Part shown: piece after piece, positions 26,757 to 57,590 of the stretch | How positions within the stretch are numbered: position 1 is the first letter of the stretch | Layout: each line of letters starts with the position of its first letter | Source of the DNA: an uncultured virus (IMG/VR IMGVR_UViG_3300020213_000028) | Lineage: Duplodnaviria; Heunggongvirae; Uroviricota; Caudoviricetes | Virus record (IMG/VR): IMGVR_UViG_3300020213_000028 | Strand: one strand, 5' to 3' | DNA: 64,000 nt | Notes under the pieces: model-generated | The model's database searches: none | Told to the model about the DNA's origin: nothing | Seen by the model: only the letters and a program-made list of their open reading frames with translations | Program-made: the position numbers and the translations under genes

Positions 26757-27182
26757 AAGTGCTCGGTTCGCACTATTCGTGCGCACCGGCTAGCACCTAC
26801 ACACCACCACACAGCTTCTTCCTGCGCAGCAACGCCGCGCCGAGGACCCAAGCATGCTGATCCTCACTCCGCAACTGCTCGAAAAACTTCGTACGGAGCA
26901 ACCGTACCCGGAACTGCGCATGGAGCCAGATCGGCCCTGGGCCGACGAAAAACATACCAAATTTTTTGACCGCCTGAAAGCCCAACTTCCTACGAAAGAC
27001 TAAATGAAGCTGTTTCAAATCCGAGAAGTTGCTAGTAATAAAGTGTTGAATCCCACCTATCCCAGCAAACCCAGGGCTAAGAATGCGCGTGATTTACTAG
27101 AAGGCCCTCGCGAAGAACTCAATCCCCGGCGCTTCGTAATCGTACCGGGTCCCGACCACCACAAATACAACGGAACCACCTA

Positions 27183-28559
27183 ATGAAGCTCACCACGCCT
27201 GAACAGCTGGCCGCCTGGGCCGCAGAATATTACGGCTGGGGCCTAGGATCAAAAGCCGAAGTTCTTGACAATCTAAAAAACAAGACTCCTACCTCATTAT
27301 GGCGCTGGCGCGAAGACAACAAGGACGTGATATACAACCGCCCACGCCCCTACTGGGCTCACAACATTGACTCCGACAATAGCTTCTGGGTTTATGTCAC
27401 TGCTGACGATCCAATGAAGATCGGCTATACCCCGACCGACGCCTACGGCATTGCTGATCGCCAGATCGTCACCACTGTTGGGCGATTCTTACGGAAGCAT
27501 TACCCTGAGCTGTCAAAAGAAAGCATTTGCCACTACGTCGACCAACATCGCAGCACCTACGGCCCCGCCGAACTGGCTATCGCCTTCGACGCAGCTGATA
27601 TTCAGCACGCCTATGAAAACGGCCCTAGTTCATGTATGGCAGGCAAAGACTGGTCCTACGAGAATCCCTATCGCATCTACGACGGCCCCGATACCGTCCT
27701 GGCGCTGCTGTACCGCGGCGACCGCATCGTAGCGCGCACGGTGTGCAACATAAACACCGACCCGATGCAATACACCCGGATTTATGGCGACGCCAACGTA
27801 CTAAAAACCAAGCTCCTCGAGCTTGGTTTTGCTGAGGGGAGTCTTAACGACGTCCGACTGCGCCTTCACATAGTGGACGACTCCTGTGCAGTGTGTCCTT
27901 ACATTGACACTGTTGACCGCGCGGACATCGAAGGCGACTTCCTATTCCTCGGTGATGGCGACTTCAGTCCACAGACCACTAACGGGCTCTTGCAGATCTA
28001 CAACAAGGAAGACGATGAGGATATGTTCTTCTGCGAGCACTGTGAAGAGGACTGCAGCGAAGAGGACAACCACGCGTGCGAAGCCCATAACGGTCACGGG
28101 GGCTTGACTATTTGTAGCTCTTGCGCCGAGGGCTCCTACACCATAGCGATCATCAACAGGCGGGCTTACGAAGCTTACGTCCACGACGCCGAGATCATAG
28201 AAGTCAGAAACCAATACTACTTGAACGACGATGATCTTCTATGTGCCTTGGGCTTCATCTATTGCGACCAGGAAGAGCAATGGTTCCATCCTGGCGATAT
28301 ATGCACGCCAAAATACCGCGACGAACACTGCCCCACCGATAAATGCACTTATGGAGAGAGTAATGAATGGATTCACGACGACGATGCTATCAAAACCGAC
28401 AGTGGGCAAACCCACCACGTTGATGACACGGTTGAAATCGAGGGAAAAGTCTATTCCCTCGAAGAAGCAGAAGAACTCAATTTCCCCCTCCCCAGAATCC
28501 ACCGTATCACCGACTCCATCGAGTTCGCCGATCGACAAGGACAGCTCGAAATTACTTGA
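27183..28559 (+). CDS. hypothetical protein with Cys-rich acidic C-terminal half
   Basis: 458 aa; GPSSCM, YTRIYG, PYID motifs and CxxC pairs. Confidence 0.7.
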   Translation: MKLTTPEQLAAWAAEYYGWGLGSKAEVLDNLKNKTPTSLWRWREDNKDVIYNRPRPYWAHNIDSDNSFWVYVTADDPMKIGYTPTDAYGIADRQIVTTVGRFLRKHYPELSKESICHYVDQHRSTYGPAELAIAFDAADIQHAYENGPSSCMAGKDWSYENPYRIYDGPDTVLALLYRGDRIVARTVCNINTDPMQYTRIYGDANVLKTKLLELGFAEGSLNDVRLRLHIVDDSCAVCPYIDTVDRADIEGDFLFLGDGDFSPQTTNGLLQIYNKEDDEDMFFCEHCEEDCSEEDNHACEAHNGHGGLTICSSCAEGSYTIAIINRRAYEAYVHDAEIIEVRNQYYLNDDDLLCALGFIYCDQEEQWFHPGDICTPKYRDEHCPTDKCTYGESNEWIHDDDAIKTDSGQTHHVDDTVEIEGKVYSLEEAEELNFPLPRIHRITDSIEFADRQGQLEIT

Positions 28560-29418
28560 AATGCTCTCTTACATGCGCCCTGCTGGGTCAGAGGCCGACC
28601 AAGAATTCATCAAACGCTACATCGAGCCCACCGGAGCCTACTGCGTCAAAGGCAATAATTGGTATGTGGCAATCCCGGGCGACGACGAAACCTTGTTCTC
28701 TTGCCACACCGACACCGTGCACCGAACGTCCGGCCGCCACCTGGTCGCCTACGACGCGAACATAGAGCTCGCTTACGTCGAAGGTAAAGAGCCCCTCGGC
28801 GCCGACAACACCGCCGGCGTGTGGCTGTTGCTGGAGATGATCGCGGCCAGAGTCCCCGGCCACTACCTCTTCCATTACGGCGAGGAAAAAGGCTGCCTTG
28901 GCAGCCGTGAACTCGCCGTTGAAGAAGAGGCTTGGTTGAAAACCTTCAAGCGAGCAATCGCCTTCGACCGCCGCGGCACTACCTCGGTGATCACCCATCA
29001 ACACGGTGACCGCTGCTGCTCAGCCCTTTTCGGCACCACTCTCGCCGCCGCGCTGGAGCTCGACTACCAGCTGGACGACACCGGGCTCTACACCGACACC
29101 GCCAGCTACATGAAACTGATTCCTGAGTGTACCAACGTATCCGTCGGCTACGACCATGAACATGGCCCAATGGAGACCTTGGATCTCGCGCACTGCAAGC
29201 GCCTGCGCGACCAAGTGCTAAAGGTTAACTGGACCGCGCTGCCCGCCGCGCGCGATCCAACAGCAATCGAACTCTTTGACTCTTTCAGCGATTACGAGCT
29301 GCTGGAAGAAGCTGCAGCCGCTGGTTACGACCGTGCGGATCTCCAAGACCTGCTGTGGCGCGATAAGGAATACGTGCTGGACATCCTGCAGGCTACCTTT
29401 CGTCTTTATAAGGAATGA
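28363..29418 (+). CDS. M20/M28-family zinc peptidase-like protein
   Basis: SCHTDTVH, LGADNTAG, GEEKGCLGS, AFDRRG, SVGYDHEH; start uncertain (GGAG before ATG 28363). Confidence 0.8.
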   Translation: MNGFTTTMLSKPTVGKPTTLMTRLKSREKSIPSKKQKNSISPSPESTVSPTPSSSPIDKDSSKLLEMLSYMRPAGSEADQEFIKRYIEPTGAYCVKGNNWYVAIPGDDETLFSCHTDTVHRTSGRHLVAYDANIELAYVEGKEPLGADNTAGVWLLLEMIAARVPGHYLFHYGEEKGCLGSRELAVEEEAWLKTFKRAIAFDRRGTTSVITHQHGDRCCSALFGTTLAAALELDYQLDDTGLYTDTASYMKLIPECTNVSVGYDHEHGPMETLDLAHCKRLRDQVLKVNWTALPAARDPTAIELFDSFSDYELLEEAAAAGYDRADLQDLLWRDKEYVLDILQATFRLYKE

Positions 29419-29427
29419 AAAACCACC

Positions 29428-29610
29428 ATGCTGCACAATATCAACGGTACCTTCAAAATGTTGAATGCCGCAGGCCGCGTCACGAAATCCCGTTCGGGGT
29501 TCGAGCCGGTCACCACTGAAGTCCTTCAAGAGCGCATCGCGCGTGCTGACAAGCGCATCCGCTCGCTCACCAGCGCCAAGCGCGACATGCTGGCTTTGAT
29601 CAACACCTGA
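29428..29610 (+). CDS. hypothetical protein
   Basis: AAGGA RBS; 60 aa. Confidence 0.5.
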   Translation: MLHNINGTFKMLNAAGRVTKSRSGFEPVTTEVLQERIARADKRIRSLTSAKRDMLALINT

Positions 29611-29691
29611 TCAACGGAGCCCTTGCCTGCTCTCACACCGCACGGCCACCCGGCGGCCGTTAGGAACAGGTTCAAGGCTCCTCCTTTTTCT

Positions 29692-29769
29692 GTCCTTTTC
29701 GTCTAGAGGCTTAGGACGCTGCATCCTACGGGACCAGAGACGTCGGTTCGAATCCGGCTGAGGACTCCA
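29692..29769 (+). tRNA. tRNA-like gene with tRNA-Glu body and aberrant anticodon arm
   Basis: acceptor GTCCTTT/TGAGGAC-T-CCA, D-arm GTC-TAGAGGCTTAG-GAC, T-arm GTCGG-TTCGAAT-CCGGC; anticodon arm is 19 nt capped by TACG. Confidence 0.8.
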
Positions 29770-29785
29770 CTTACAAAAGGACTTC

Positions 29786-30091
29786 ATGGGCTCACGATAT
29801 AACGAGCACCACTGCCCTCTTCATGTATCCGCCCGCGGTACAGCAGCGATCACCGCCCACTTCAAAGCAGTGATTCACCAAGCAGCCTATGACTATGGTC
29901 ACGCCGGCTACTCCGGGAGCTTCGCCGAAGCCGACGGTGTAAACCTCCGGGCAGGCCACATCTTCGATTCAGAAGAAGAAGCCAGTAATTGGCTCAACGA
30001 AAACGCCTGTAAATGGGGGCCGATCATCATCGTGCCTTACCTGGAAATAGGAAACACTCTCTGGCTCGGCGGATGTTGGTGTTCCAGTTGA
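29786..30091 (+). CDS. hypothetical protein
   Basis: AAGGA RBS; YDYGHAGYSGS..KWGP..WLGGCWCSS. Confidence 0.65.
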   Translation: MGSRYNEHHCPLHVSARGTAAITAHFKAVIHQAAYDYGHAGYSGSFAEADGVNLRAGHIFDSEEEASNWLNENACKWGPIIIVPYLEIGNTLWLGGCWCSS

Positions 30092-30122
30092 ACTTTGCTA
30101 TCTAACATCAGTCTGAGGTAAG

Positions 30123-30857
30123 ATGCTCCTCTCTCACGAAGCTCCTACCGAAGACACCATGATCCGAGCCTGGTCGCACTCCCGCCTCAGCAATTTTGAA
30201 TCCTGCCGGCTCCGCGCGAAACTGCTCTACATCGACAAGCTCGAAGAGCCCCGCGGCGAGCTTAAACCCGGCCAAACCGAATACGCCAACGACCGCGGCA
30301 CTCGTATCCACGAGGCCGCCGAGCTTTACGTCCGTGGTGGCGTCGAACTTATCGACGAGCTGAAAGATTTTTCCTCTGAATTCAAGAAGTTGCGTGAGCT
30401 CTTCAAAGAAGGCAAGGTCTCCCTCGAAGGCGACTGGGCGATCGACGACGCCTGGCGCCCGACCGCCTGGAAGTCCGCCGACACGTGGGGGCGTCTAAAG
30501 TTAGACGCCATGGTCACGCTGACGCCGCAACACGCCGTAGTCATTGATTACAAGTCCGGCCGGCGCTCCGGCAACGAGCTGAAGCACGCTGAGCAGACCC
30601 AGCTCTACACCGTGGCTACGCTGCTGCGCTACCCCGACGTCGAGCGGATCTCTACCGAGCTCTGGTACACCGACCAAAACGATCTAGCCCGCGTCGAGTA
30701 CACCCGCGCGCAGGGCATGCGCTTTTTGAAGAAGTGGAACGACCGCGGGCTGGCTCTCACAACGTGCGAGACCTTCCCCCCCAACCCCAATAAATACAGC
30801 TGTCGCTTCTGCCACTTCGGGCCGAAGGGGAGCGGCGTATGCACCGTAGGAGTCTGA
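30123..30857 (+). CDS. PD-(D/E)xK exonuclease (RecB/Cas4-like)
   Basis: WSHSRL..C, RGTRIH, LKLDA, VIDYKSG, QTQLY, C-terminal CRFC..C cluster. Confidence 0.88.
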   Translation: MLLSHEAPTEDTMIRAWSHSRLSNFESCRLRAKLLYIDKLEEPRGELKPGQTEYANDRGTRIHEAAELYVRGGVELIDELKDFSSEFKKLRELFKEGKVSLEGDWAIDDAWRPTAWKSADTWGRLKLDAMVTLTPQHAVVIDYKSGRRSGNELKHAEQTQLYTVATLLRYPDVERISTELWYTDQNDLARVEYTRAQGMRFLKKWNDRGLALTTCETFPPNPNKYSCRFCHFGPKGSGVCTVGV

Positions 30858-30858
30858 C

Positions 30859-31149
30859 ATGTCCAAGCTGATTCTTCCTCAGGCCCTCGCCGAAGAGCTC
30901 GAGCCTCCCGCGATCGTACTGCCCCAGGAAATTCAAGACAGCGTCGACCTTTTGATCCTCGGTATCCAGAACGGCTGTGTCGCCGTAGCTCGGCATAAGA
31001 CTAATGACAGCGACCAAGTCGGCTACGACCTGATCGTCTACACCGCGCGAGGCCCCATCGCTGTGGCTTACGTTCTCCCTCAACTACAAATCGAGCCAAC
31101 GAATGAGCCAAGTCAAGCCGCTGTTCAAGCACCAGCAGCAGTCGATTGA
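30859..31149 (+). CDS. hypothetical protein
   Basis: AGGAG RBS. Confidence 0.55.
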   Translation: MSKLILPQALAEELEPPAIVLPQEIQDSVDLLILGIQNGCVAVARHKTNDSDQVGYDLIVYTARGPIAVAYVLPQLQIEPTNEPSQAAVQAPAAVD

Positions 31150-32464
31150 TTTTGGACGAGGTAAGCCCGCCTTGCTCGACGCCAGCGACCCTGGTACTGG
31201 AAAGACCCGAGTCGCCGTCGAGCTTGCCCGCGGACGCATCCACGCCGACAACCGCGCCGTCCTCGTGCTCTCCCCCAAATCTTCCCTGCGCTCTACTTGG
31301 TTTGAAGACTTCCGCAAGTTTGCCCCTGAACTCTCGGTACAACTGGCCTACGCCACCAATCGTGAAAAGGCGTTCCAGAACACCGCGGACGTCTACGTCA
31401 CGAATCACGATGCAGTGAAATGGCTCGCTCTCAAAGACAAAAAATTCTTCAAGCGCTTCTCAACCTGCATCGTCGATGAATCTGGCGCCTACAAACACTA
31501 CACCAGCGCGCGCTCTAAAGCGGTCAACAAAATCGCCCCCCTTTTCGAATACCGCGAAGCAATGAACGGCACGCTCAATCCAAACACCATCCTCGACGTG
31601 TGGAACCAGGTCTTCTTTCTTGACCGCGGTGAGCGTCTGGGCAAATCGTTCCACCACTTTCGCAATCAGGTTTGTGTACCCACCCAAGTCGGCCCCAGCG
31701 CCAACATGTTGCGCTGGGAAGATCGTATCGGCGCTGAGGAAGCTGTCGCTGGCCTGATTCGCGACATCACCATCCGCCACGCCTTCCAGGACTGCACTGA
31801 CATCCCGCCGAATCACGAGTACTCAATACCATTTGTCTTGAAGCCGCAGCACCGCAATACATACCGAATGATGGCTGCCGCCGGCATCGCCTCCATGGAA
31901 ACCGGCGTCGTCTCCGCGATCAACGCTGCAGCCGTTTCCACCAAGCTCTTGCAGATCGCCTCCGGCGCTGTTTATGAGAACGAGGATACCTACCATCTAG
32001 TCGACACCGATCGCTACGAAGTGATCATGGACCTGTTGGAGCCTAGAAAGCATTCGATCTGTTTCTTTCTGTGGAAACACCAAAAGCAACAGCTGATCGA
32101 CGCCGCCTCCGCCCGCGGCTACACCTACTGCGTGATCGACGGCAGCATCTCCGACCACGAACGCGAGGAAGCTGTGCGTTTGTTCCAGGCCGGCTTCTAC
32201 AAAGTGCTCTTCGGTCACCCGGCCTCTATGGCGCACTCACTGACCCTGGTGAAAGCCAAGACCACAATCTGGGCCTCACCCACCTACAACCTCGAATGGT
32301 TCATGCAGGGCAACAAACGAATCGACCGTATCGGCCAGGATGAAAAGACCGAGACGATCGTCGTTGTTGCTGAAGACACCATCGACGAAAAAGTCTACGC
32401 CGCCTGCGCTACCAAGCGCGTACGCCTGATCACCCTACTCGAAGAACTCAAAGAGGCCGCCTAA
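31103..32464 (+). CDS. SNF2-like DNA helicase
   Basis: DPGTGKT, IVDES, NGT, KLLQIASG, QGNKRIDRIGQ. Confidence 0.9.
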   Translation: MSQVKPLFKHQQQSIDFGRGKPALLDASDPGTGKTRVAVELARGRIHADNRAVLVLSPKSSLRSTWFEDFRKFAPELSVQLAYATNREKAFQNTADVYVTNHDAVKWLALKDKKFFKRFSTCIVDESGAYKHYTSARSKAVNKIAPLFEYREAMNGTLNPNTILDVWNQVFFLDRGERLGKSFHHFRNQVCVPTQVGPSANMLRWEDRIGAEEAVAGLIRDITIRHAFQDCTDIPPNHEYSIPFVLKPQHRNTYRMMAAAGIASMETGVVSAINAAAVSTKLLQIASGAVYENEDTYHLVDTDRYEVIMDLLEPRKHSICFFLWKHQKQQLIDAASARGYTYCVIDGSISDHEREEAVRLFQAGFYKVLFGHPASMAHSLTLVKAKTTIWASPTYNLEWFMQGNKRIDRIGQDEKTETIVVVAEDTIDEKVYAACATKRVRLITLLEELKEAA

Positions 32465-32748
32465 TGAAACACACCCGCAACTACGGCATTCCCAAGGCCA
32501 TGAGCCAAACCAAAGTCACCTCGCCTCGCGGTGTTGGCAAACCCAAACGAGAGTGGCGCGCTGGCGAACCTGCCCTGATCTATTCCGACAAACCAGTGAT
32601 GCGAGCCGCGTCGCTCTACATTGACTACGACGCCAAGACCGCGCTCGCCTGGCTCAAAAGTATCAGCCGCGGCGCGCTCCTACCGCTCGTACTAGCTCGT
32701 ACCCAGTACCTCGAACGGTGTGCGAAGCGCCTCGCCTATGCGGGTTGA
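32464..32748 (+). CDS. hypothetical basic protein
   Basis: coupled between helicase and polymerase. Confidence 0.55.
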   Translation: MKHTRNYGIPKAMSQTKVTSPRGVGKPKREWRAGEPALIYSDKPVMRAASLYIDYDAKTALAWLKSISRGALLPLVLARTQYLERCAKRLAYAG

Positions 32749-34630
32749 TCTAAGCAAGGTTGTAACCTTGGACTTTGAGTCGTACTATGACCCAAAGTAT
32801 TCACTACGCCTAAAGACCTATAACACCTCGAGCTATATCCGAGACCCGCAGTTCAAGGCGCACTGCGTCGCCCTAAAGTTCGGCGATGGTGAGACGGTCA
32901 CCTACCGCGACAAGGACATCAAAGACGCTCTACACGCAGTCGACTGGAAGAGCTCGCACTTACTCTGCCAGAACACTGCCTTCGACGGCCTAATTCTCTC
33001 GCACCATTACGGCATCGTGCCGGCGTTCTACTACGACACTATGTCGATGGCGCGCGGCCTGCATGCCAACATGAGCCGAGCCAGTCTCGCTGTACTCGCG
33101 CCGATGTACGGCGTGGGTAGTAAGAACGTCAAGGCCCTGGCCAATACCAAAGGCCTACGCAACATCCCCGAAGAGCTGTGGCCCGAGTTCCTCGCCTACA
33201 ACGCCGAGGACACTCGTCAGTGCTACGAGATCTTCAAGATCATGAGCGCCTGCTTTCCCGAAGCCGAGCTCGACCTGATCGACCTCACCATCCGCATGTT
33301 CTGCGAGCCTAAGCTCTACGTCGACGTACCGCGTGCGCAGGCCGAAGTCGATCGCGAGATCGCCCGCAAGGCCGAGCTGGTCGCCCTCACCGGCGTCACC
33401 GAAGCGGACCTGCAGAGCTCAGCCAAGCTCGCCGCTCTGCTGCGCGCCGCCGGCGCCGAGGTACCAATGAAGCTCTCTGCACGCACCAAGATGCAGACCT
33501 TCGCCTTCGCCCAGACCGACGAGGAGTTCGTGGCCCTCGCCGCGCATCCGGACGAAAAAGTCCGACACCTGGTCCAGGCTCGCCTGGGGGTGAAGTCCAC
33601 CATTGGTGAGACGCGCGCCGGCCGCTTCGTCACCTCGGGGCAGGACGGCCAGCGGCTGCCGATCATGCTCAACTACTTCGGTGCACACACCGGCCGCTGG
33701 AGTGGCGGCGACAAGATGAACGCGCAGAACCTACCCAAGGAAGAGCGCGACGACAACAACGTACCCATCCCGCTCACCGGGGAGCTGCGCAAGTCAATCA
33801 TCGCCCCGCCGGGCCATCAAATCGTCGTCTGCGACAGCAAGCAGATTGAATGCCGGGTGCTCGCCTGGCTGGCGGGGCAGCAGGACATGCTGGACCTCTT
33901 CGCTACCAACGGCGACCCCTACTGTGCCCTCGCCACCGAAATTTACGGCCGCTCGATTACCAAGGCCGATCCCGACGAACGCGCCGTAGGCAAGTGTGGA
34001 GTGCTCGGTCTCGGGTTCTACATGGGCGCCAAGCGCTTCATGGGCACCCTGGCCGCGGGCATCCTTGGACCAAAGCTCGACATGCCTCTCGAGGAGTGTC
34101 AGGCGATCGTCGACATCTATCGCTCCAAGAACCGCGCCATCAAGAACCTGTGGCGAAAGATGGAGCAGGTGCTCTACCGCATGCTGGTGAAAAAGTCGAG
34201 CGATAGCCCCGACGCAATCACAGTATTCCGCCCCGACGTGATCGAATATGACGCAACCACGGTGTGGCTGCCCAACGGCATGGGGTTGCACTACCCCGAC
34301 CTGCACGCAGAATGGAATGAGCGCTTCGAACGCTACAACGACTACTCCTACCGCGCCAACAAGGAGTTCGTGCACATCCACTCTGGCCTGCTGACGGAGA
34401 ACATCGTCCAGGCCTTGGCCCGAATCATCGTCGGATTGCAGATGCTGGAAATCGCCAAACGCTACTCGGTGGTCATGATGTCCCACGACGAAATTGCCTG
34501 CATCGCTAAGACCGAAGAAGCCCAGACCTGTCTGGACTTCATGGTCGAACAAATGAGCATCCCGCCTCTCTGGGCGTCAGATCTCCCCCTAGGCGCCGAA
34601 GGTGGTTTCGACGTCTGTTACAGCAAGTGA
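32738..34630 (+). CDS. family A DNA polymerase with 3'-5' exonuclease
   Basis: LDFESY, QNTAFD, YNAED exo motifs; HTGRWSG, motif A DSKQIECR, motif B RAVGKCGVLGLGF, motif C SHDE. Confidence 0.93.
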   Translation: MRVDLSKVVTLDFESYYDPKYSLRLKTYNTSSYIRDPQFKAHCVALKFGDGETVTYRDKDIKDALHAVDWKSSHLLCQNTAFDGLILSHHYGIVPAFYYDTMSMARGLHANMSRASLAVLAPMYGVGSKNVKALANTKGLRNIPEELWPEFLAYNAEDTRQCYEIFKIMSACFPEAELDLIDLTIRMFCEPKLYVDVPRAQAEVDREIARKAELVALTGVTEADLQSSAKLAALLRAAGAEVPMKLSARTKMQTFAFAQTDEEFVALAAHPDEKVRHLVQARLGVKSTIGETRAGRFVTSGQDGQRLPIMLNYFGAHTGRWSGGDKMNAQNLPKEERDDNNVPIPLTGELRKSIIAPPGHQIVVCDSKQIECRVLAWLAGQQDMLDLFATNGDPYCALATEIYGRSITKADPDERAVGKCGVLGLGFYMGAKRFMGTLAAGILGPKLDMPLEECQAIVDIYRSKNRAIKNLWRKMEQVLYRMLVKKSSDSPDAITVFRPDVIEYDATTVWLPNGMGLHYPDLHAEWNERFERYNDYSYRANKEFVHIHSGLLTENIVQALARIIVGLQMLEIAKRYSVVMMSHDEIACIAKTEEAQTCLDFMVEQMSIPPLWASDLPLGAEGGFDVCYSK

Positions 34631-42664: not shown

Positions 42665-43123
42665 CTAGTCCTTACTCCTAACGCGCCCTTTTTTTAGCCA
42701 GACTGTATCCACCACCCCGCCTGTGCAGGTGTCCACTTCCTGCGCTACCGCGATGGCTTCCTCCGGCTCGTGCCCCAGGAGCATCGCCGCCAGCGCGGCC
42801 TGCCGCCCGGTGCCGATGGCCCAATAGTCATCCTCCACCACGTCAGGCACGCAGTCGGTGTCATACACCAGCAGCGAGCCCTTCGCGGTGAGCACCAGCG
42901 CCGCCAGCGAGTGCTTCTTGTTGAACTCCGGCGCCTTCACCGTCTTCGACGTGAGCGAGGCCCGATACCACGCCCAGAATTTGACGATCGCTGGGTTGTC
43001 GCCGGCCACACCGACAATCGACCCGTTGATCTCGCGCAGCTTGATGCAGCTGTAGCTGACGTCCCCGTCGGTCACCTTGCGGTCCGCACTCATGCACTGG
43101 CGGTTCGCCGCGATGGTGGTCAT
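42665..43123 (-). CDS. Ntn-hydrolase, HslV/proteasome beta-like peptidase
   Basis: MTTIAA N-terminus, ADRKVT, GVAGD, WAIGTG..ALAAM, D..TGG. Confidence 0.8.
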   Translation of the reverse strand: MTTIAANRQCMSADRKVTDGDVSYSCIKLREINGSIVGVAGDNPAIVKFWAWYRASLTSKTVKAPEFNKKHSLAALVLTAKGSLLVYDTDCVPDVVEDDYWAIGTGRQAALAAMLLGHEPEEAIAVAQEVDTCTGGVVDTVWLKKGRVRSKD

Positions 43124-46100
43124 CGGATCGCCTTCGAGACCACAGAGCCGAGCGGGAGAGACTCGGCGACGAACTCTGCGAACTGCGCGCCGTTGCGGGG
43201 ATTCGCCACAGCCCCGAAGGCGTCCAGCGCCTGGTCCGCCGTCGGGCCGATGAGGCCGCGCAGCAGGAATTGATCTGCGCCGACGACGCCGCGCACTGCG
43301 TCTGCGGTGAAGGCGGTCGGACCCAGCAGGCCGGAGCGGTCTAAGCCCCTCCCCATGTAGTGCAGGAACCCGTTCTTGTCGGGGATCGAGCCGCCGTGGT
43401 AGATCATGTCGCGGAGCATCGTTGACGCCGCCATGATCGGAATGTAGGTCATGGCCATCAGCATCGGCGTTGGGTTGCCGTGCTCGAGCAGCTCGTGCTC
43501 GAACTTCTTGTTGATCACCTTGTTGAAGCTGAACACGTACTGCTTCAGGTGATAGAGCAGAGCGAAGGTCGGGTCCGCGCCCCACTTGGTGCGCTCGCCG
43601 ATGTTCGGGCGCATGGACGACTCGTCGACGAAGCGGTTGAGCGCCGCCGCGACCTTGTCGGTCACCACCAGCTGGCCGTTGCCGTCGGTCTTGACGTCGT
43701 TCGCCTCAATGCCGAGCTCAGCCAGGTGCCGCGTGCCTTCTTCGCCGTTCTTCGAATGTCGTACCAAGAACCGAGTACCGGCCGCCAGGGCGGCGATGCG
43801 CACGCTGCGCATCAACCCATTCATGCCGTTCCAGGTGAAGAGCTTGTCGTTGAGCGTCTTGCCCACGCCCTCGATGTCGACGCCGCCGTAGAGGTTGGTC
43901 AAGCTGTCGGCCACGCCGGAGGACTCGATCGCGCCGATGGTCTCGGCCAGCGCTTCCATCTCAGCGGCCTTGAGCCGGCCCTTCTTGGTGAGCCGGCTGA
44001 TCGCCGTCTTGTAGGCCTGCGTTGCCTCGCGCCACTCACCGCTGCGCACGGCGATGCCCATCGGGTCCACGACGGAGCCGAGCAGCGCCAGGCCCAGCAC
44101 GCGGTAGTTTTGGTAGACCGTCACGCCGGCGATGACTTTGCGCATCGTCGGACTCAGATCGTGGAGCTTCGTACCGAGTGCGTCGTCCTTGTACGACTTC
44201 ATGAGATCCTCGTCCTCGGCCGAGAGCGTGTAGCCGCGGGCGGCCTCCATTTCGGCGTCCCAGATCTCGTTCTTGTCGCCGAAGCGGCGGGCCCACTCGG
44301 CCCGGCGCACCGCTTGCTTGGTGTAGCGCTGCAGGCTGCTGGCCAGGTCGTCACGCACGAACGGGCGCTTCTCAGCGTTGGAGAGGAAGCCGAACACGCG
44401 GTTGAGCACGAAGTCGGCGTTGGGCACGCCGTTCTCGTCGACGGCCTCACCGCTGAACTCCGTGGCGTCCAGCCCGCGCTTGGACATGCGCTCCCAGATA
44501 GATTCGGGTGTAAGCGGGTCAAAATTTGGATTGGTGGCCTTAGCGGCGAGCTCAGCGTTCAATTTATCCAGATCGGCGCTATGTCCGGCGAACATGTCGA
44601 TGAACGCCTTCTTCTGCGCCAGGATCTTGTCGCCGCTCCAGCTCATCGGCAGGTAGTCCTCGATGTAGCCGACGTCGACGCCAGCCTGCCACAGGTAGGT
44701 CTGTAGGGAATCGAGATACGCGCCGATCGCGGCGGCGGCTGGGGACTCGACGCCGGCGGCGCGGTCCTCAAGCCCCTGCTGATAACCGGGGCTCGCGGCC
44801 AGCTTGGCCAGCTTGTTCAAGAAGCGCTTGGCGGCCTCCGGCTCAGCCTGGGCGAAGCCGCGCTGCGTGGTCTTCTCGCCGACCTGCGTGTACATCAGCC
44901 GGGCGAGCTTGCTGGTATGCGGGTTGCCCAGCTCGCGGGCGCGGTCGTCGTAGGTTGAGAGCGCCTTGTCGTAGAGCTTGCCCATGCCCTTGGCCGCGGA
45001 CGCCAGGACCTGCCGCGCGGCGTTACCGGTGCGGCCCTGCTTGGCCAGGGCGATGTCGACCGGCGACGGGGGGCCGTCGGCGAACACACCGTCGCGGATC
45101 TGCTCGAGCAGCTCCTGCGCCGTGGGCTGGTCCTTAACCCAAGCGATGGCCTTCTGCAGCAGGGCGGCGATCTTGCCCATGATCTTGCTGGTGTCCGGGC
45201 CGACCTTGAGCGCGCCGTTGTGCCAGAACTGGAAGCTGTAGGCCATCAGCTCCTCTTCGTCCATCGTCGCCGCTTCCCAGGCGTCCGGACTGTCCTTGAG
45301 CAGTTCCTTGAGCTGGGCCTTGACCGGGCCGCCCTTAAACGCCGCGTAGAGCGATTTGCGCTGGTCGGAGGTCAGGTAGTTCCGGTAGACGACGTGGAAC
45401 GCCTCGTGGAAGGCTGTGGAGCCGCTCAGTGCCGACGTGGCGGCCAGCGTGATGAGCTTCTTGGCCGCGTCGTACTGGCCGGCGTGCGCTTGGTTGGCGT
45501 CGAACTTGACCCCGGTGGTGGCGCCGGCGATCTTGTGGATGGCCGCGACCAGCTCTGCCTGGACGGCAGGGTCGGTTGAATCGACCCGGTCGGCGATGTC
45601 GGGCTGCGAGTTCGGGGCGAACCCCTTCGCGGCCTCTTTGTTCGCGGCCGCGCCGCGTAGAAGCGAGTCGAAGGACGGGGCCTCTGTCGTGCGGAACTCG
45701 CCCCGCTCCACCGCGCCGAACACTTCCGCTAGAAGATCGTCTCCGCGGAGCCTCGCCAGCGTATCCAGCACGAACTGCTTGACGCCGTTGAAGAATCCGC
45801 CCAACTTGCTGGCCGAGTTTAGCTTGAGCTTGCCCGCGCGCCAGAGAGCATACGCCTGCACCAACATCTCTTCGGGGTCGTTGCGGAAATAGTCGCGGCT
45901 GTCCAGCGGCAAATTCTTCAGCACCTGCGAGGCAATGTGCGGGGCTTGCGCGGCTTCGAACAGGTGCTTAGCGGCTTCACCGCCGTATTCAGAAGAGATG
46001 CGATTGAGTACCGCGTGCATCACTTCATGGTGTGCGGTCTCGTAGAGCGCCCCTTCCGGTTGGGCTTGGTCGTAGAGCGCTGTGAGCAGCCCGATGGACT

Positions 46101-49100
46101 CGCCGCCGTCGCGAGAAGCGCCATACACTCCGAGAACCCCAGGGCCTTCGGTCTCCATTATCGGGGCGAGATCGACCTTCACGTACTCGCCGAGAGAGTC
46201 ACTGATTATCTTCTTCGCGGCGACGGCCATCTCGGGCGTGATCGGGACCATCGCGGCTAAGACTTTCTGCGCCGCGCTCAGGGCCTGCGCTTCCCCGTTC
46301 CCTTTGGCGCCCTTCTTGATGGCGACTCGGAGTGCGAGGATCGCGGTGTCTAGTTGGAGCGCGTTTAGCTTATCGGGCTGCGCGGACGTAAGGTCAGCCG
46401 CCACCGTTTTCGCTGCTTCAAGCGCAGTAGTGGCCGCGGGGGACGACTCCGCGTTGAGGCGAGCCTGGGTTTCGGCCACCGCTTGCGCGGCTTCGTTGAC
46501 CAAGGCTTTGAACGCATCGCTCTGGTTATACCGCCCACCCGTGTGCAGGCTCTTCTTCACGCCTTCCGCCGGCGCTGGGGCCGGCTCAGCTTTTTTTGCG
46601 GCTTGGCCCTCCGCGGTACCGCGAATTGCTTTGAGCGCGGGGAAGATTGCTGAGGTGCCCGCCATGGCGCTCTGGATGCGGTCGGTCGCGCTTTCCTTCG
46701 CAGCTGGGATCGTGCTCTGCCTGAGGCTGTTCGCCACCATGCCGGTGAGAGCTTCCGACACGATCCAAGCGTCCTTCCGTGGGTTGCCTTCTCCGTCCAG
46801 AGGACGGGTCACCACGTATGTGTCATCGCCGATGGTGAAGACCCGCCCGCCGACGCCCACGGCCTGGCTGGAAGCGGCTCCAGTGAGGTCAAGACTCACA
46901 AACGTCTTCTTATCCGCGCTCAGGCCCAACTTCGTGCCGTCCTTGGTGTACACGCCGCCGTCGCGCACTTCTGCGTGTTCGGTACTGATTCGAAATGGCT
47001 TTAGCAGCTCCGCGTTATTCGGCTCAGCTTTTTTTGGTGCGACGCCCTCCACCGCCTTCTCAGCCAAGTTGATGACTTTGCGGGCCTCAGTACTCGGTAC
47101 TTCGTTCTTGGCAACGAAGGGAACTTCGTTCGCATCCTTCGTCAACTCCTTGCGCTTCTCCTCGCGGCGCTGGAACGGGCCGTCTACGCCCTTCTCCAGC
47201 TTGCCGGCGGGCTTGACGTCGCCCACGCGCGCGAAATCCTTAACCATCCCGGGTGTGAGATTCGGGGAAGTTAGGATCTCCATCTGCGCGTCGGTCAGGC
47301 GCCGGTCTGAGACCAGCGTGTTCATGGCGTTCTGCAGCAGCGCGCGGCCGGTGTCGGTCGTGACGCGCGCGTAGGCGGCCTTGACGTTCTTCAAGGCGAC
47401 GTCACGGACGTTGGAGGCGCTCTCGCCGGCCCCGGCGTCATTCGACACAACGCCGGGATCCGCTGCGAACGGCTCAAGCGGCAGTACCGGGCCGAGCTCT
47501 CGCTCAGCGGCGCGGTCTTCCTTTTCTGCGTTCTGGGCGATCGTTGCGCGCGCAACTCCCGGCAGATCAGTAGTCGGGGCGACGGCGGTGCTGCTCGGCG
47601 CGATCTTTCGGGCCTTGCCGCCGACCGGCACCTTGTCGTTGGCGAAGCGCGCGTTCGAGGCTTTCGCTGCTCCGGCGTCGTAGCCTCGACCGGCGTTCTC
47701 AGTGCCCTCGTAGTTGATGTGCTGCCCCGACAGGTCCTCGGTCAGGACCCCTTCGTTCTCGCCAGTGAATTCCTCGTTGCTGGCCTTATCGACGTTGTCG
47801 ACACTCGTCTCCTGCTCGCCCATCTGGCCTTTCTGCAGGTCGAGCTCGAGGTCCGACAGGCGCGTCATCAGGCTCGTGCGCGCCGCGGAGAACACGGCAG
47901 GCGACAGATTCGCCAGCGCCGGGTGCACCTTGGCCTTAATCGCCCCGTCTGCGTCGCCGTAGGCCTGCGGGTTCATGATGAACGTGTGGGCCCGGTCGAC
48001 CAGAGTCTGCTGCTCCTCGGGCGTGAAAGGCGTGCCGCGGCGTGAGTCTTTGAGCGAGTCGCGGAGAGTGTTGACCACCTCACGCGCGACCTTGTCGCCC
48101 TGCCGGGCCTTCTCAGCGGCGATGTCCTCAGGCTCGGACTGCTTGGCCACCTTGGCGTGGAAGTCTTCGACAGCGGTGTGCACGTTCGGGGCGCGGTTCT
48201 CTTTGCTTGAATAAGTCAGCCTGTCGTACGTCTGCAGCTTGCCCGCGTTGGCGGAGACCACGGAGTTCGGCCGGAGCCAGCTCTTCATATCGACTTCGTT
48301 GAAGCGCCCCTTGCCGCCGATGCCATCCTCGCGCCGGATCGCCGACACCACGCCGTCCTGGGTGTCCTGCTTGGCGGGGTCGACCGTCACCACGACGTCG
48401 TTGCCGGCGTCGTCGGTCTCCTGCCAGCCGGTGAGCAGGCCAGTCACGCCCTGCTTGAAGTTGTCGTACATCGACTGCTGCACGCCCTTGCGGCTGTTGG
48501 ACAGGGTGTGGTCTTTCCACGAGGTGGCGACGTTGACGAAGTTGATCTGCTTGTTCGTGGTCTTGGTGTCGACCACCTCGCCGGTGGCGGAGTCCTTGGT
48601 CGTGTAGGTGAGCTGCACCCAGGCGTTGCCCTTGTGCGGCTTCCACTTTTTGCCCGTCTTGGGGTTGATCTCGGTGCCCGCCTGGCGCCCGGTGGTGACC
48701 ATCTTCGCGAAGGTCGTCGGATCCAGCGCCGGGTTGTCGACCCCGGTCTCGTTCGCGGAGTCGATCTCCGTGAGCGCGCTGGCGCCGCCGTCCTCTTCGA
48801 GGTTCTTCTCGATCTCGTCGATCGCGTCGAACGAGTCGGCGTTGCCATCGAGGTTGCTCTGGTTCGCGTCGGTGACGAAGTTGGCGTTGTCCTCGACCTT
48901 GGAGCGGCGTGCGCCCCTCTCTTCCTTGATCGCGCCAATCTGCCGCACCACCAGGTCTTTGAACTCACTGGGGCTCATGTCGAACGCAGTGGCGACGTAC
49001 TGCGCGATGCTCGGGCGGTTGATGAACGCATCGAACTCCGCTGGGTTGTTTTTCAGCATCGTGTCGAGGCGCTTGACCATGTGCGTCGCGCCGTTCGAGA

Positions 49101-56984: not shown

Positions 56985-57590
56985 TTAGGTCGAAGTCAGC
57001 GAGACCGTGTAGCCGATATTGAACAGATCGGCGTCGCTCAGCGAGCGCGCAGTGGCGAAGCGCGTGGCGGAGAACAGGACGCCGGTCGTGCCGCCGCGCA
57101 CCGACGAGGACAGCAGGCCCACGCCGTTGACGGTGAGCGTCGTCGCCGTGACGATCGTGAACACGGCCTTGGAGGCGGTGTTGTTGATCGACGCCGCGGC
57201 AGCCGTGCTGTCTACGAATTCCTGGCGGGTCGCCTCGCTGTGGCCCTCGGTGAGGGACGTGATCTCGGAGGCGTTCGCCGTGAAGTTCGCAGCGGTCCAG
57301 GTGTTCACCGGGGAGATCGCGCCGGCGTACAGGGCGAGATAGAAGTTCGCGTATTTCGCCGTCGCGCCCAGGTACACGGCGAGCAGGCTGGTGAGCCCCT
57401 CGGTCGTCAGCAGGTTCGTGTCGGACTGCGGGTCGAGGCCGTTGACGTCGTGCTCGTACACGCCGCGAGCGACCATCTTGGAGGCCGGGAAGTACAGGCC
57501 GCCGTCGTCAGTCTGCTCGAACTTTAGATTGGAAAGGTCCCGAAGGAACTCGGGGGCGTGGTCGCGCAGGTCCTGAGTCAGGTTCAGCAT
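56985..57590 (-). CDS. virion structural protein
   Basis: NLLTTEGL, GVLFSATRF motifs of small tail proteins. Confidence 0.65.
   Translation of the reverse strand: MLNLTQDLRDHAPEFLRDLSNLKFEQTDDGGLYFPASKMVARGVYEHDVNGLDPQSDTNLLTTEGLTSLLAVYLGATAKYANFYLALYAGAISPVNTWTAANFTANASEITSLTEGHSEATRQEFVDSTAAAASINNTASKAVFTIVTATTLTVNGVGLLSSSVRGGTTGVLFSATRFATARSLSDADLFNIGYTVSLTST

What the first reader, a model, noticed from the sequence alone, without database searches (positions are those of the whole stretch)
29692..29769. tRNA mimic whose anticodon loop is replaced by a UNCG tetraloop
Seen: the acceptor stem with encoded CCA, the D-arm and the T-arm are intact and closely resemble bacterial tRNA-Glu (GTCC..TTCGTCTAGAGGC..AGGAC). 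The anticodon arm is CTG-CA-TCC-[TACG]-GGA-C-CAG, a stem capped by c(UACG)g, a member of the extra-stable UNCG family, with no 7-nt anticodon loop. A designed-looking cap argues against simple decay. Inference: a non-decoding tRNA-like RNA, possibly a cleavage-resistant decoy for anticodon nucleases or tRNA-targeting toxins, a synthetase/EF-Tu/RelA modulator, or an RNase P processing signal.
Basis: partly seen in the sequence, partly recalled or inferred. Interest (0 to 1): 0.7.

Follow-up and report, generated by a model that had tools for sequence, protein, structure and literature searches.

The report
Phage tRNA-Glu relic lacking anticodon loop
An uncultured phage carries a gene that still has the body of a glutamate tRNA, but a short tight hairpin replaces the part that reads codons, so it probably cannot decode and may be a disabled tRNA kept as an RNA-cutting signal.

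Summary
Window 29692-29769 (+) is a 78-nt tRNA-shaped gene with an acceptor stem, D arm, T arm and encoded CCA. Its 19-nt anticodon arm folds as CUG/CAG, a CA/C internal loop, UCC/GGA and a UACG tetraloop. This form is 6-8 kcal/mol better than any 7-nt-loop reading, including ARAGORN's tRNA-Val(UAC). The sequence is real: it is identical in a 98.9%-identical second contig and in contigs of two further runs.

It lies in the replication operon of a roughly 64-kb lytic phage distantly related to Pseudomonas phage KPP25.

The only neighbouring homologue found (L001) has a 7-nt loop with anticodon UUC. The tetraloop is therefore a derived, lineage-specific state of a tRNA-Glu gene.

The hairpin is not statistically remarkable: 14-23% of random inner sequences fold as well, and a UNCG loop arises in 0.18%.

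No data show selection, expression or a decoy role.

Similar loop-less tRNA-Glu bodies in unrelated phages keep a functional reading open.

Verdict: a non-decoding tRNA derivative, of moderate interest.

The parts
29692..29769 (+). 78-nt tRNA-like gene: a tRNA-Glu-type body with no 7-nt anticodon loop
   Evidence: ARAGORN; Rfam RF00005 at 32.5 bits; fold. Identical in L008 and in contigs of runs X9 and X10.
29692..29698 (+). Acceptor stem, 5' strand (GUCCUUU). It pairs with 29759-29765 (UGAGGAC): 6 standard pairs and one U.U at the inner end.
   Evidence: Sequence; fold.
29701..29717 (+). D arm (GUCU-AGAGGCUUA-GGAC), the tRNA-Glu type
   Evidence: The same arm occurs in phage tRNA-Glu genes.
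29719..29737 (+). 19-nt arm in place of the 17-nt anticodon arm. Outer stem 29719-29721/29735-29737; internal loop 29722-29723 and 29734; inner stem 29724-29726/29731-29733.
   Evidence: Minimum-energy fold; energies and pair probabilities. The Rfam alignment leaves 13 nt instead of 11 inside the outer 3 bp.
29727..29730 (+). UACG tetraloop closed by C-G (cUACGg). ARAGORN reads U-A-C (29727-29729) as the anticodon.
29738..29741 (+). 4-nt variable region (AGAC)
29742..29758 (+). T arm (GUCGG-UUCGAAU-CCGGC), 5 of 5 pairs
29766..29769 (+). Discriminator U and encoded CCA
29616..29691 (+). Upstream leader: a long imperfect hairpin (29616-29681) followed by UCCUUUUUCU, which runs up to the first base of the tRNA-like gene. 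It looks like a terminator or a processing element.
   Evidence: Fold -32.6 kcal/mol, z -2.9, 2 of 200 shuffles as stable. Not listed by the terminator scan (its stated rule allows loops of 3-8 only). The hairpin is absent in L001, where the peptidase ORF ends 13 nt before the tRNA.
29428..29610 (+). Upstream 60-aa ORF. Its homologue lies downstream of the tRNA in L001.
29777..30091 (+). Downstream 101-aa ORF with AAGGA 8 nt after the CCA and an ATG at 29786. It would be co-transcribed with the tRNA-like gene.
   Evidence: Only two other homologues were found. Its Atlas neighbours are clusters of viral hypothetical proteins.

Best explanation
This is a derived, non-decoding descendant of a phage tRNA-Glu gene (a pseudo-tRNA).

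How it would work:
1. It is transcribed as part of the phage's replication-gene operon: primase-like gene, peptidase, orf60, this gene, orf101, exonuclease, helicase, DNA polymerase.
2. The acceptor/T-arm minihelix, D arm and encoded CCA are intact. The host's tRNA-processing enzymes (RNase P at 29692, 3' trimming to the CCA) should still cut it out. That would separate the upstream message, which ends in a long hairpin, from the orf101-exonuclease message, which starts 16 nt after the CCA.
3. The released 78-nt RNA cannot read a codon. The place of the 7-nt anticodon loop is taken by a 3-bp helix capped by cUACGg. U33 and the Glu anticodon are gone.

I think it most likely that decoding was lost in this lineage. 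The gene then persists either because the loss is recent or because the body still serves as a processing site. It need not have been shaped as a decoy.

Shown: the structure, the context, the reality of the sequence, and the derived state. Inferred: transcription, processing, and loss of aminoacylation and decoding.
For: Structure:
- The tetraloop arm is favoured by 6-8 kcal/mol over any 7-nt-loop form. Inner pairs have probability 0.93-0.99.
- Rfam scores only 32.5 bits, against 45.6 for the L001 homologue and 42-66 for tRNAs in related phages.

Derived state:
- The homologue in the closest relative (L001, whose exonuclease is 71% identical) has a 7-nt loop CCUUCAA with anticodon UUC.
- In that register the window reads CCUACGG, sharing CCU-C.

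Lineage-specific:
- By my count from the table, 62 of the 80 related metagenome loci have at least 500 nt upstream of the exonuclease. Only 2 of those 62 have a tRNA there: L008, the window's own strain variant, and L009, which is L001's contig.
- 1 of 7 viral loci has one.
- Rfam at E<=0.5 found no remnant in that position in 18 loci.

tRNA genes come and go in this part of the genome:
- L019 and L026 carry arrays of 14 and 15 tRNAs after the exonuclease.
- The gene order around the tRNA differs between the window and L001.

The cap is not exceptional:
- 14-23% of random inner sequences fold as well.

Operon context:
- There is no sigma-70-like promoter and no terminator on the + strand within 28800-30400.
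- A ribosome-binding site and ATG follow 8-16 nt after the CCA.
- There is no integrase, and this is a lytic-type genome, so an attachment-site fragment is unlikely.

Demand:
- GUA, the codon ARAGORN's reading would serve, is the rarest Val codon: 79 of 13,653 codons.
Against: - Everything outside the anticodon arm is intact. That includes U8, A14, the GG doublet, UUCGAAU and 15 of 16 stem pairs. Long neutral decay would not leave this.
- Against L001, 3 of the 12 acceptor and T-stem pairs changed on both sides and still pair (sequences). Helices in this gene family are therefore kept by selection.
- The arm itself still has 6 Watson-Crick pairs, although it differs from L001 at 13 of 19 positions.
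- Phage genomes usually shed useless DNA.
- Loop-less or short-loop tRNA-Glu bodies with intact acceptor stems occur in unrelated phages: L139, L276, and L326 9763-9839. This hints at a selected class.
- No expression or processing data exist for any step of the proposed mechanism.
Confidence: 0.45

Rival explanations
1. It is a selected, trans-acting tRNA mimic. The phage keeps a tRNA-Glu body that host or defence proteins still bind, such as anticodon nucleases, acceptor-end-modifying toxins or GluRS. The body cannot be cleaved in the anticodon loop and cannot disturb translation, so it acts as a decoy or inhibitor.
For: - The body is fully intact while the arm is remodelled at many positions.
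- The arm is a closed, stable hairpin.
- Unrelated phages carry comparable genes. L139 has a 6-bp stem with an ACCC loop and an encoded CCA. L276 has a 7-bp stem with a 6-nt loop. L326 9763-9839 has the loop CCCUCA.
- 6 of 89 unique tRNA-Glu-type sequences in the spacing-unbiased sample have structurally aberrant arms. All 6 have 6-7 of 7 acceptor pairs.
- Phage G002 keeps two such genes beside a decoding tRNA-Glu(CUC) with the same acceptor stem.
- tRNA-targeting defences, and phage tRNAs that counter them, are established (PMC10264068 abstract; PMC12445682 passages; PMC11464382 and PMC11555353, search listing only).
Against: - No homologue keeps this tetraloop, and there is no covariation.
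- The cap is within chance expectation.
- The survey required an intact D arm and T loop, so the bodies it found are partly intact by selection of the sample.
- No defence system known to me targets tRNA-Glu specifically (from memory).
- Published phage counter-measures are decoding tRNAs, not decoys. In P2 OLD, resistance was reported not to be due to competitive inhibition (PMC12445682, passage seen).
- A sponge would have to compete with the whole cellular tRNA pool.
Confidence: 0.2
2. Its job is purely in cis. The tRNA-shaped fold, together with the hairpin in front of it, is kept as a punctuation mark. Host RNase P and 3' processing enzymes cut the operon transcript there, which sets the stability or translation of the flanking messages. 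The released RNA has no function.
For: - It sits inside a tightly packed operon. A strong hairpin plus U-run ends 1 nt before it. The next ribosome-binding site begins 8 nt after its CCA.
- There is no promoter of its own.
- Only the parts needed for RNase P and 3' processing are conserved.
- L001 shows the same tight embedding: the peptidase stop is 13 nt before the tRNA, and the next ORF starts 21 nt after it.
Against: - Most relatives do without any tRNA at this place.
- An ordinary decoding tRNA would serve equally well, so this does not explain the loss of the loop.
- Nothing was measured.
Confidence: 0.2
3. It is a working tRNA-Val(UAC), as ARAGORN calls it. On this view a tRNA-Glu gene changed its anticodon and reads GUA or GUN codons.
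For: - ARAGORN's call.
- In the register of L001's loop the window reads CCUACGG, one base away from UUC.
- From memory: ValRS relies mainly on A35 and C36.
Against: - That register has only U-A, G-C and U.G among 5 stem positions. It costs about 8 kcal/mol relative to the tetraloop form.
- C replaces U33. G37 and G38 pair back into the loop. The discriminator is U rather than the A of tRNA-Val (the last point from memory).
- The Rfam score is barely above threshold.
- GUA makes up 8.8% of Val codons and 0.6% of all codons counted.
Confidence: 0.08
4. It is an assembly or sequencing artefact, or a chance resemblance.
For: None beyond the low Rfam score.
Against: - The 78 nt are identical in L008, which differs from the window at 60 other positions.
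- They are also identical in contigs of runs X9 and X10.
- Two programs find a full cloverleaf.
Confidence: 0.01

Closest known systems
Phage-encoded tRNA-Glu genes, for example the neighbouring gene in L001 (IMG/VR contig) and the annotated tRNA-Glu of Streptomyces phages KimJongPhill and Zuko
   Same: - Same D arm, T loop, 4-nt variable region, acceptor stem beginning GUC/GAC, and encoded CCA.
- Same genomic neighbourhood as L001.
   Different: - There is no 7-nt loop, no U33 or C33, and no YUC anticodon.
- The arm is 19 nt and is capped by UACG.
- The discriminator is U instead of G.
- It is not a member of the decoding tRNA-Glu class.
Nuclease-resistant phage tRNAs. Examples: T5 tRNAs against PARIS or retron PtuAB; phage tRNA-Thr against P2 OLD; the anticodon-loop mutation hypothesis of van den Berg et al. 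(PMC10264068)
   Same: - It is a phage-borne tRNA gene whose anticodon arm departs from the standard.
- L001 and three other phage tRNA-Glu genes share an unusual C33 loop, CCUUCAA. This fits the idea of loop changes under pressure.
   Different: Those tRNAs still decode and rescue translation (PMC10264068 abstract; PMC12445682 passages). This RNA has no decoding loop, so it cannot replace a cleaved tRNA.
Non-canonical phage tRNA genes with 6- or 8-nt anticodon loops (ARAGORN 'tRNA-???'), for example L326 7997-8074 and 9763-9839, and L327 8062-8136
   Same: They are tRNA-Glu bodies with intact acceptor stems and CCA but anticodon arms that do not fit 5 bp plus 7 nt.
   Different: - The arm sequences and loop sizes differ, and the host phages are unrelated.
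- Two of them keep the letters CUC in the loop. The window keeps no Glu anticodon.
Pseudo-tRNA tRNAOther of Bacillus cereus (PMC3399842, search listing and start of abstract only)
   Same: It is a tRNA-shaped RNA reported not to function in translation, yet with a phenotype when deleted.
   Different: It is chromosomal, has a different body, and sits at the edge of a genomic island. No phenotype is known for the window's gene.
tRNA-like processing signals and viral tRNA-like RNAs: mascRNA at the MALAT1 3' end, vtRNAs of murine gammaherpesvirus 68, and the tRNA-like domain of tmRNA (all from memory, not checked here)
   Same: These are tRNA-like folds cut by tRNA-processing enzymes without serving as adaptors.
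   Different: - They are eukaryotic, or in the case of tmRNA charged with alanine and joined to a coding domain.
- Rfam gave no match to tmRNA or any other tRNA-like family here.

Membership tests
tRNA (Rfam RF00005) | Cloverleaf with a 7-bp acceptor stem, D arm and T arm, scoring above the curated threshold | tested here: met
   32.5 bits against a gathering score of 29, model positions 1-71. ARAGORN also detects it.
tRNA (decoding adaptor) | 5-bp anticodon stem closing a 7-nt loop with U33 and a purine at position 37 | tested here: not met
   The arm is 19 nt. The best 7-nt-loop register has only 3 pairable stem positions out of 5, has C at position 33, and is about 8 kcal/mol worse than the tetraloop fold.
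tRNA-Glu isotype | Glu-type body: D arm GUCU...GGAC, 4-nt variable region, G1-C72 and U2-A71 (the identity set is from memory) | tested here: met
   Sequence. The same D arm carries UUC or CUC in 146 of 162 unique phage sequences. BLAST hits are annotated tRNA-Glu genes.
tRNA-Glu isotype | Anticodon YUC in the loop | tested here: not met
   The loop letters are UACG. No UUC or CUC occurs anywhere in the arm.
tRNA-Val(UAC) (ARAGORN's call) | UAC presented in a 7-nt loop on a paired 5-bp stem | tested here: not met
   The stem reads U-A, G-C, C.C, A.A, U.G. That form is -13.0 kcal/mol against -21.2 for the tetraloop form.
UNCG tetraloop hairpin | Loop U-N-C-G closed by a C-G pair on a helix | tested here: met
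   c(UACG)g sits on UCC/GGA, with pair probabilities 0.93-0.99. The extra stability of UNCG loops is from memory and was not measured here.
UNCG tetraloop hairpin as a selected feature | Conservation of the loop, with covarying stem, in homologues | tested here: not met
   The only homologue (L001) has a 7-nt loop. No other homologue turned up in 7 viral and 80 metagenome loci.
Nuclease-resistant phage tRNA | Still decodes, so it can replace the cleaved host tRNA | tested here: not met
   No decoding loop is predicted. Aminoacylation was not testable.
tRNA-like processing signal | Cleavage by RNase P at the 5' end and 3' maturation in vivo | not testable with these tools
   No RNA run holds the sequence. 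Only the structural prerequisites are present.
Phage attachment site (tRNA 3' fragment) | An integrase gene, and a partial tRNA copy identical to a host tRNA | tested here: not met
   No integrase was found among the ORFs scanned. The gene is full length. Its 5' half matched only 1 record in the collection of 185,579 species genomes, and that record is an insect symbiont.

The most novel reading that the evidence does not exclude
Phages of several unrelated lineages may carry a so far undescribed class of 'headless' tRNA-Glu bodies. In these the acceptor, D and T arms and the CCA are intact, but the anticodon loop is replaced by a closed hairpin. Examples are UACG here, ACCC in L139, and 6-nt loops in L276 and L326.

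Such RNAs would be made to be bound, but not cleaved or used, by host factors that recognise tRNA-Glu or tRNA acceptor ends. They would act as anti-defence decoys or inhibitors that cannot poison the phage's own translation.
Probability: 0.15. Interest if true: 0.8.

Novelty: new variant of a known kind. Interest (0 to 1): 0.4.

Why it matters
Phage tRNA genes are currently explained in two ways: as codon supply, or as nuclease-resistant replacements for host tRNAs that defence systems cut. A phage tRNA body that has given up decoding fits neither.

If it is only a relic, it documents how phage tRNA genes decay, with the anticodon arm going first and the body last. It also warns that ARAGORN can label such genes with a confident isotype, here Val.

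If it is kept by selection, it would be the first phage tRNA mimic acting as a decoy or as a processing mark. The handful of similar genes in unrelated phages would then define a class worth a census.

Tried and rejected
- **Whole-genome search:** no genome is held for this window.
- **DNA search against cultured phages:** there was no near match for 27000-33000. For the tRNA itself, only distant tRNA-Glu hits in Streptomyces phages.
- **Exact search for the arm in IMG/VR:** 0 matches.
- **Population test for selection:** L008 differs from the window at 60 of 5676 positions. 34 of these lie in 27689-28592 and 19 in 32761-33194. Only 7 fall in the 4.1 kb around the gene. Zero changes in 78 nt is therefore expected, and the test has no power.
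- **Runs X9-X12:** these showed only 6 variable positions in 2.5 kb. X11 and X12 do not cover the gene.
- **Expression:** no RNA holder is listed among the 12 runs. This says nothing either way.
- **A template for the remodelled arm:** the only other near match to TCCTACGGGACC is at 57536-57547 (-), inside a coding region and with no wider similarity. 2 of 100 shuffles give two matches. I rejected it as chance.
- **Donor or host tRNA:** the 5' half matched 1 record in the collection of 185,579 species genomes, an insect symbiont, which is uninformative.
- **A link between the tRNA-like gene and orf101:** orf101 has two homologues and none in IMG/VR. Its Atlas neighbours are viral hypothetical proteins. 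No link could be tested.
- **Relatives of L139's loop-less gene:** none found.
- **Relatedness of phages with similar odd tRNA-Glu genes:** 0 of 5 and 0 of 5 records match the exonuclease or the polymerase.
- **Earlier notes of this scan:** none.
- **Literature:** four searches found no description of a phage tRNA-like RNA with a tetraloop in place of the anticodon loop, and none of a non-decoding phage tRNA decoy. This covers open-access text only.
- **Caveat on the pattern scans:** One search did not return L001's contig although L001 fits the pattern. All survey counts are therefore samples, not censuses.

Full report
**What is in the sequence**

Window 29692-29769 (+) reads GTCCTTT-TC-GTCT-AGAGGCTTA-GGAC-G-CTGCATCCTACGGGACCAG-AGAC-GTCGG-TTCGAAT-CCGGC-TGAGGAC-T-CCA. 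ARAGORN reports it as the only tRNA gene in the 64-kb window and calls it tRNA-Val(TAC). Rfam's tRNA model matches end to end at 32.5 bits (gathering score 29, E 1.6e-4). It aligns only the outer three pairs of the anticodon stem and leaves 13 nt between them where the model has 11. tRNAs in related phage loci score 42-66 bits, and the neighbouring homologue scores 45.6.

The acceptor stem has 6 standard pairs plus one U.U. The D stem (4 pairs) and the T stem (5 pairs) are intact. So are U8, A14, the GG doublet, the T loop UUCGAAU between G and C, a 4-nt variable region and the encoded CCA, all read directly. That these positions are the conserved core of tRNA is textbook knowledge recalled from memory.

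**The anticodon arm**

The 19-nt arm (29719-29737) folds as CUG/CAG, a CA/C internal loop, UCC/GGA and a UACG loop closed by C-G. With the rest of the cloverleaf fixed, one search gives these energies:

| Form of the arm | Energy (kcal/mol) |
|---|---|
| Tetraloop | -21.2 |
| 7-nt loop, as ARAGORN must assume (stem U-A, G-C, C.C, A.A, U.G; loop CCUACGG) | -13.0 |
| Open 13-nt loop | -15.2 |

In the isolated arm the inner pairs have probabilities of 0.93-0.99. The RNA is very unlikely to present an anticodon.

**Is the cap 'designed'?**

I kept the outer three pairs and randomised the inner 13 nt. 18% of shuffles and 23% of random sequences gave an arm at least as stable. 14% gave at least 3 bp around a 4-nt loop. 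0.18% gave a UNCG loop.

The last figure is small, but the category was picked after seeing the sequence. The whole-molecule energy is also ordinary (z 0.24). The cap alone does not argue against decay.

**The sequence is real**

Metagenome contig L008 is 98.94% identical to window 27623-33298, with 60 mismatches, and carries the identical 78 nt. Twelve DNA runs labelled microbial mat metagenome hold the region. I laid contigs from four of them. X9 and X10 cover the gene without a difference, and X11 and X12 do not cover it.

These data cannot test selection. The 60 mismatches are clustered, with 34 in 27689-28592 and 19 in 32761-33194. Only 7 lie in the central 4.1 kb, so no change in 78 nt is the expectation.

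**Context**

The window looks like a complete lytic phage. It has small and large terminase subunits, a P22-like portal, a capsid protein, an adaptor, a 2620-aa virion protein, a primase-like protein, a PD-(D/E)XK exonuclease, a helicase and a family-A DNA polymerase. There is no integrase. The nearest cultured phages are Pseudomonas phages KPP25 and phiR18, at 38% polymerase identity. KPP25 has the same replication-gene order and no annotated tRNA.

The gene lies between a 60-aa ORF (stop at 29610) and a 101-aa ORF (AAGGA at 29777-29781, ATG at 29786). No sigma-70-like promoter is nearby. Directly upstream, 29616-29681 folds into a long hairpin (-32.6 kcal/mol, z -2.9; 2 of 200 shuffles as stable). 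UCCUUUUUCU follows and runs into the first base of the gene.

**Homologues**

Seven IMG/VR loci and 80 metagenome loci encode relatives of the exonuclease. A tRNA upstream of the exonuclease is present only in these:
- L001, which is the same contig as L009. Its exonuclease is 71% identical.
- L008, which is the window's own strain variant.

By my count from the table, 62 of the 80 metagenome loci have at least 500 nt upstream. That makes 2 of 62. Rfam at E<=0.5 found no remnant in that position in 18 of the closer loci. Two relatives, L019 and L026, carry arrays of 14 and 15 tRNAs just after the exonuclease. tRNA genes therefore come and go in this part of the genome.

L001's gene is a 79-nt tRNA-Glu with one extra base after position 26 and a stem CAGCC/GGCAG containing one A.A. 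Its 7-nt loop is CCUUCAA, that is anticodon UUC with C instead of U at position 33. In the same register the window reads CCUACGG.

The two genes differ at 13 of the 19 arm positions when the equal-length arms are compared position by position. Across the 12 acceptor and T-stem pairs, three pairs changed on both sides and still pair:
- acceptor pair 4: C-G to G-C
- acceptor pair 5: U-A to C-G
- T-stem pair 3: C-G to U-A

Three more pairs changed on one side (my reading).

The gene order also differs. The window has peptidase, orf60, tRNA, orf101, exonuclease. L001 has peptidase, tRNA, orf60 homologue, exonuclease. The two may not be strict orthologues.

**Similar genes elsewhere**

I sampled IMG/VR for the Glu-type D arm and T loop with free spacing.
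- 82 have a canonical arm.
- One (L153) merely reads CUG.
- Six have structurally aberrant arms: L091 (two genes), L139, L154, L156 and L180.
- All seven deviants have 6-7 of 7 acceptor pairs.

L139, in a 158-kb phage judged complete, has a 6-bp stem with the loop ACCC and an encoded CCA.

A second scan, biased towards long spacing, gave L276. It lies in an 84-kb phage with terminal repeats. That phage has three genes with the same acceptor stem:
- one with a 7-bp stem and a 6-nt loop
- one with the loop CCCUCA
- one decoding tRNA-Glu(CUC) with C33

The loop CCUUCAA recurs in L001, L207, L217 and L319.

None of these phages is related to the window's phage.

Three limits apply to this survey:
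- The patterns demanded an intact D arm and T loop.
- One search missed L001 although L001 fits the pattern.

The counts are therefore samples.

**Interpretation**

Non-decoding is well supported, at roughly 0.9. What keeps the gene is open.

Evidence for a relic:
- The state is derived and lineage-specific.
- The cap is unremarkable.
- tRNA genes turn over in this region.
- There is no conserved tetraloop.

Evidence for retention by selection:
- The body is completely intact beside a thoroughly rewritten arm.
- The arm itself is still well paired.
- Phage genomes are compact.
- Unrelated phages carry similar genes.

I commit to the following as the most likely account (0.45). It is a tRNA-Glu gene that lost decoding. 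Host tRNA-processing enzymes still excise it from the operon transcript, and any remaining use is as that cut site.

The rivals are:
- a purely cis punctuation role as the reason for retention (0.2)
- a trans-acting decoy or inhibitor (0.2)
- a working tRNA-Val (0.08)

The tRNA-Val reading is further weakened by demand. GUA is only 79 of the 13,653 codons counted, and GAA is 298.

**Literature**

What I saw:
- The abstract of van den Berg et al. (PMC10264068) proposes that phage tRNAs carry anticodon-loop changes to escape host tRNases.
- Passages of the P2 OLD paper (PMC12445682) and of the bacterial Schlafen paper (PMC13056530) describe decoding phage tRNAs that resist or suffer cleavage.
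- The PARIS and retron papers (PMC11464382, PMC11555353) and the B. cereus pseudo-tRNA paper (PMC3399842) I saw only as search listings.

Four searches found no phage tRNA-like RNA with a tetraloop in place of the anticodon loop and no non-decoding phage tRNA decoy. Subscription journals are not covered.

**Verdict**

This is a new variant of a known kind, the phage tRNA or pseudo-tRNA gene, and it is of moderate interest. The bold reading, a class of headless tRNA-Glu decoys in phages, is not excluded. I give it 0.15.

Noticed in passing
window 29616-29691 (+): A long imperfect hairpin (-32.6 kcal/mol, z -2.9) is followed by UCCUUUUUCU, which ends at the first base of the tRNA-like gene. It looks like a terminator or a processing element. 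It is absent from L001.
   Followed up: partly
L326 7997-8074, 9763-9839, 11580-11655 (phage record G002, 84 kb, terminal repeats): Three tRNA-Glu-like genes share the same acceptor stem and lie about 1.8 kb apart. ARAGORN calls two of them '???' and both fold with 6-nt loops (CGCUCC, CCCUCA). The third is a tRNA-Glu(CUC) with C at position 33.
   Followed up: partly
L327 8062-8136 (-) = L139 (phage record G003, 158 kb): A tRNA-Glu-like gene with an encoded CCA. Its anticodon arm is a 6-bp stem with the 4-nt loop ACCC. No relatives were found in IMG/VR.
   Followed up: partly
L001 3580-3658; L217/L328 6841-6918 (-); L207; L319; L291: Several phage tRNA-Glu genes have C instead of the near-universal U at position 33, with loops CCUUCAA or UCCUCAG. 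This may be a recurrent phage-specific loop variant.
   Followed up: no
L328 9011-9087 (-): ARAGORN calls a tRNA with anticodon CUA ('tRNA-Pyl'), which would be an amber-suppressor-like tRNA. It sits among 13 tRNA genes on a 15-kb viral fragment.
   Followed up: no
L019 1246-3434; L026 3355-5585: Two relatives of the window's phage carry arrays of 14 and 15 tRNA genes directly downstream of the exonuclease gene. Most relatives have none.
   Followed up: partly
window 27623-33298 compared with L008: Divergence is mosaic. 53 of the 60 mismatches lie in two blocks (27689-28592 and 32761-33194), and the 4.1 kb between them is almost identical. This suggests recombination between strains.
   Followed up: partly
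window 29786-30091 (+): A 101-aa ORF with the conserved motif GH.GYSGSFAEA and a C-terminal CSS. It has only two sequence homologues. The ESM Atlas places it near clusters of viral hypothetical proteins of about 100 aa.
   Followed up: partly
window 43120-50982 (-): A 2620-aa ORF whose C-terminal third matches a PHROG virion structural protein. It has no Pfam domain.
   Followed up: no
window 27183-28559 and 28231-29418 (+): Two long ORFs overlap by 329 nt in different frames. The peptidase match starts only at residue 103 of the second ORF, so its true start is probably further downstream.
   Followed up: no
The DNA search on viral contigs: The pattern scan did not return L001's contig although L001 contains a full match. 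Collection scans with variable gaps can miss true matches.
   Followed up: partly
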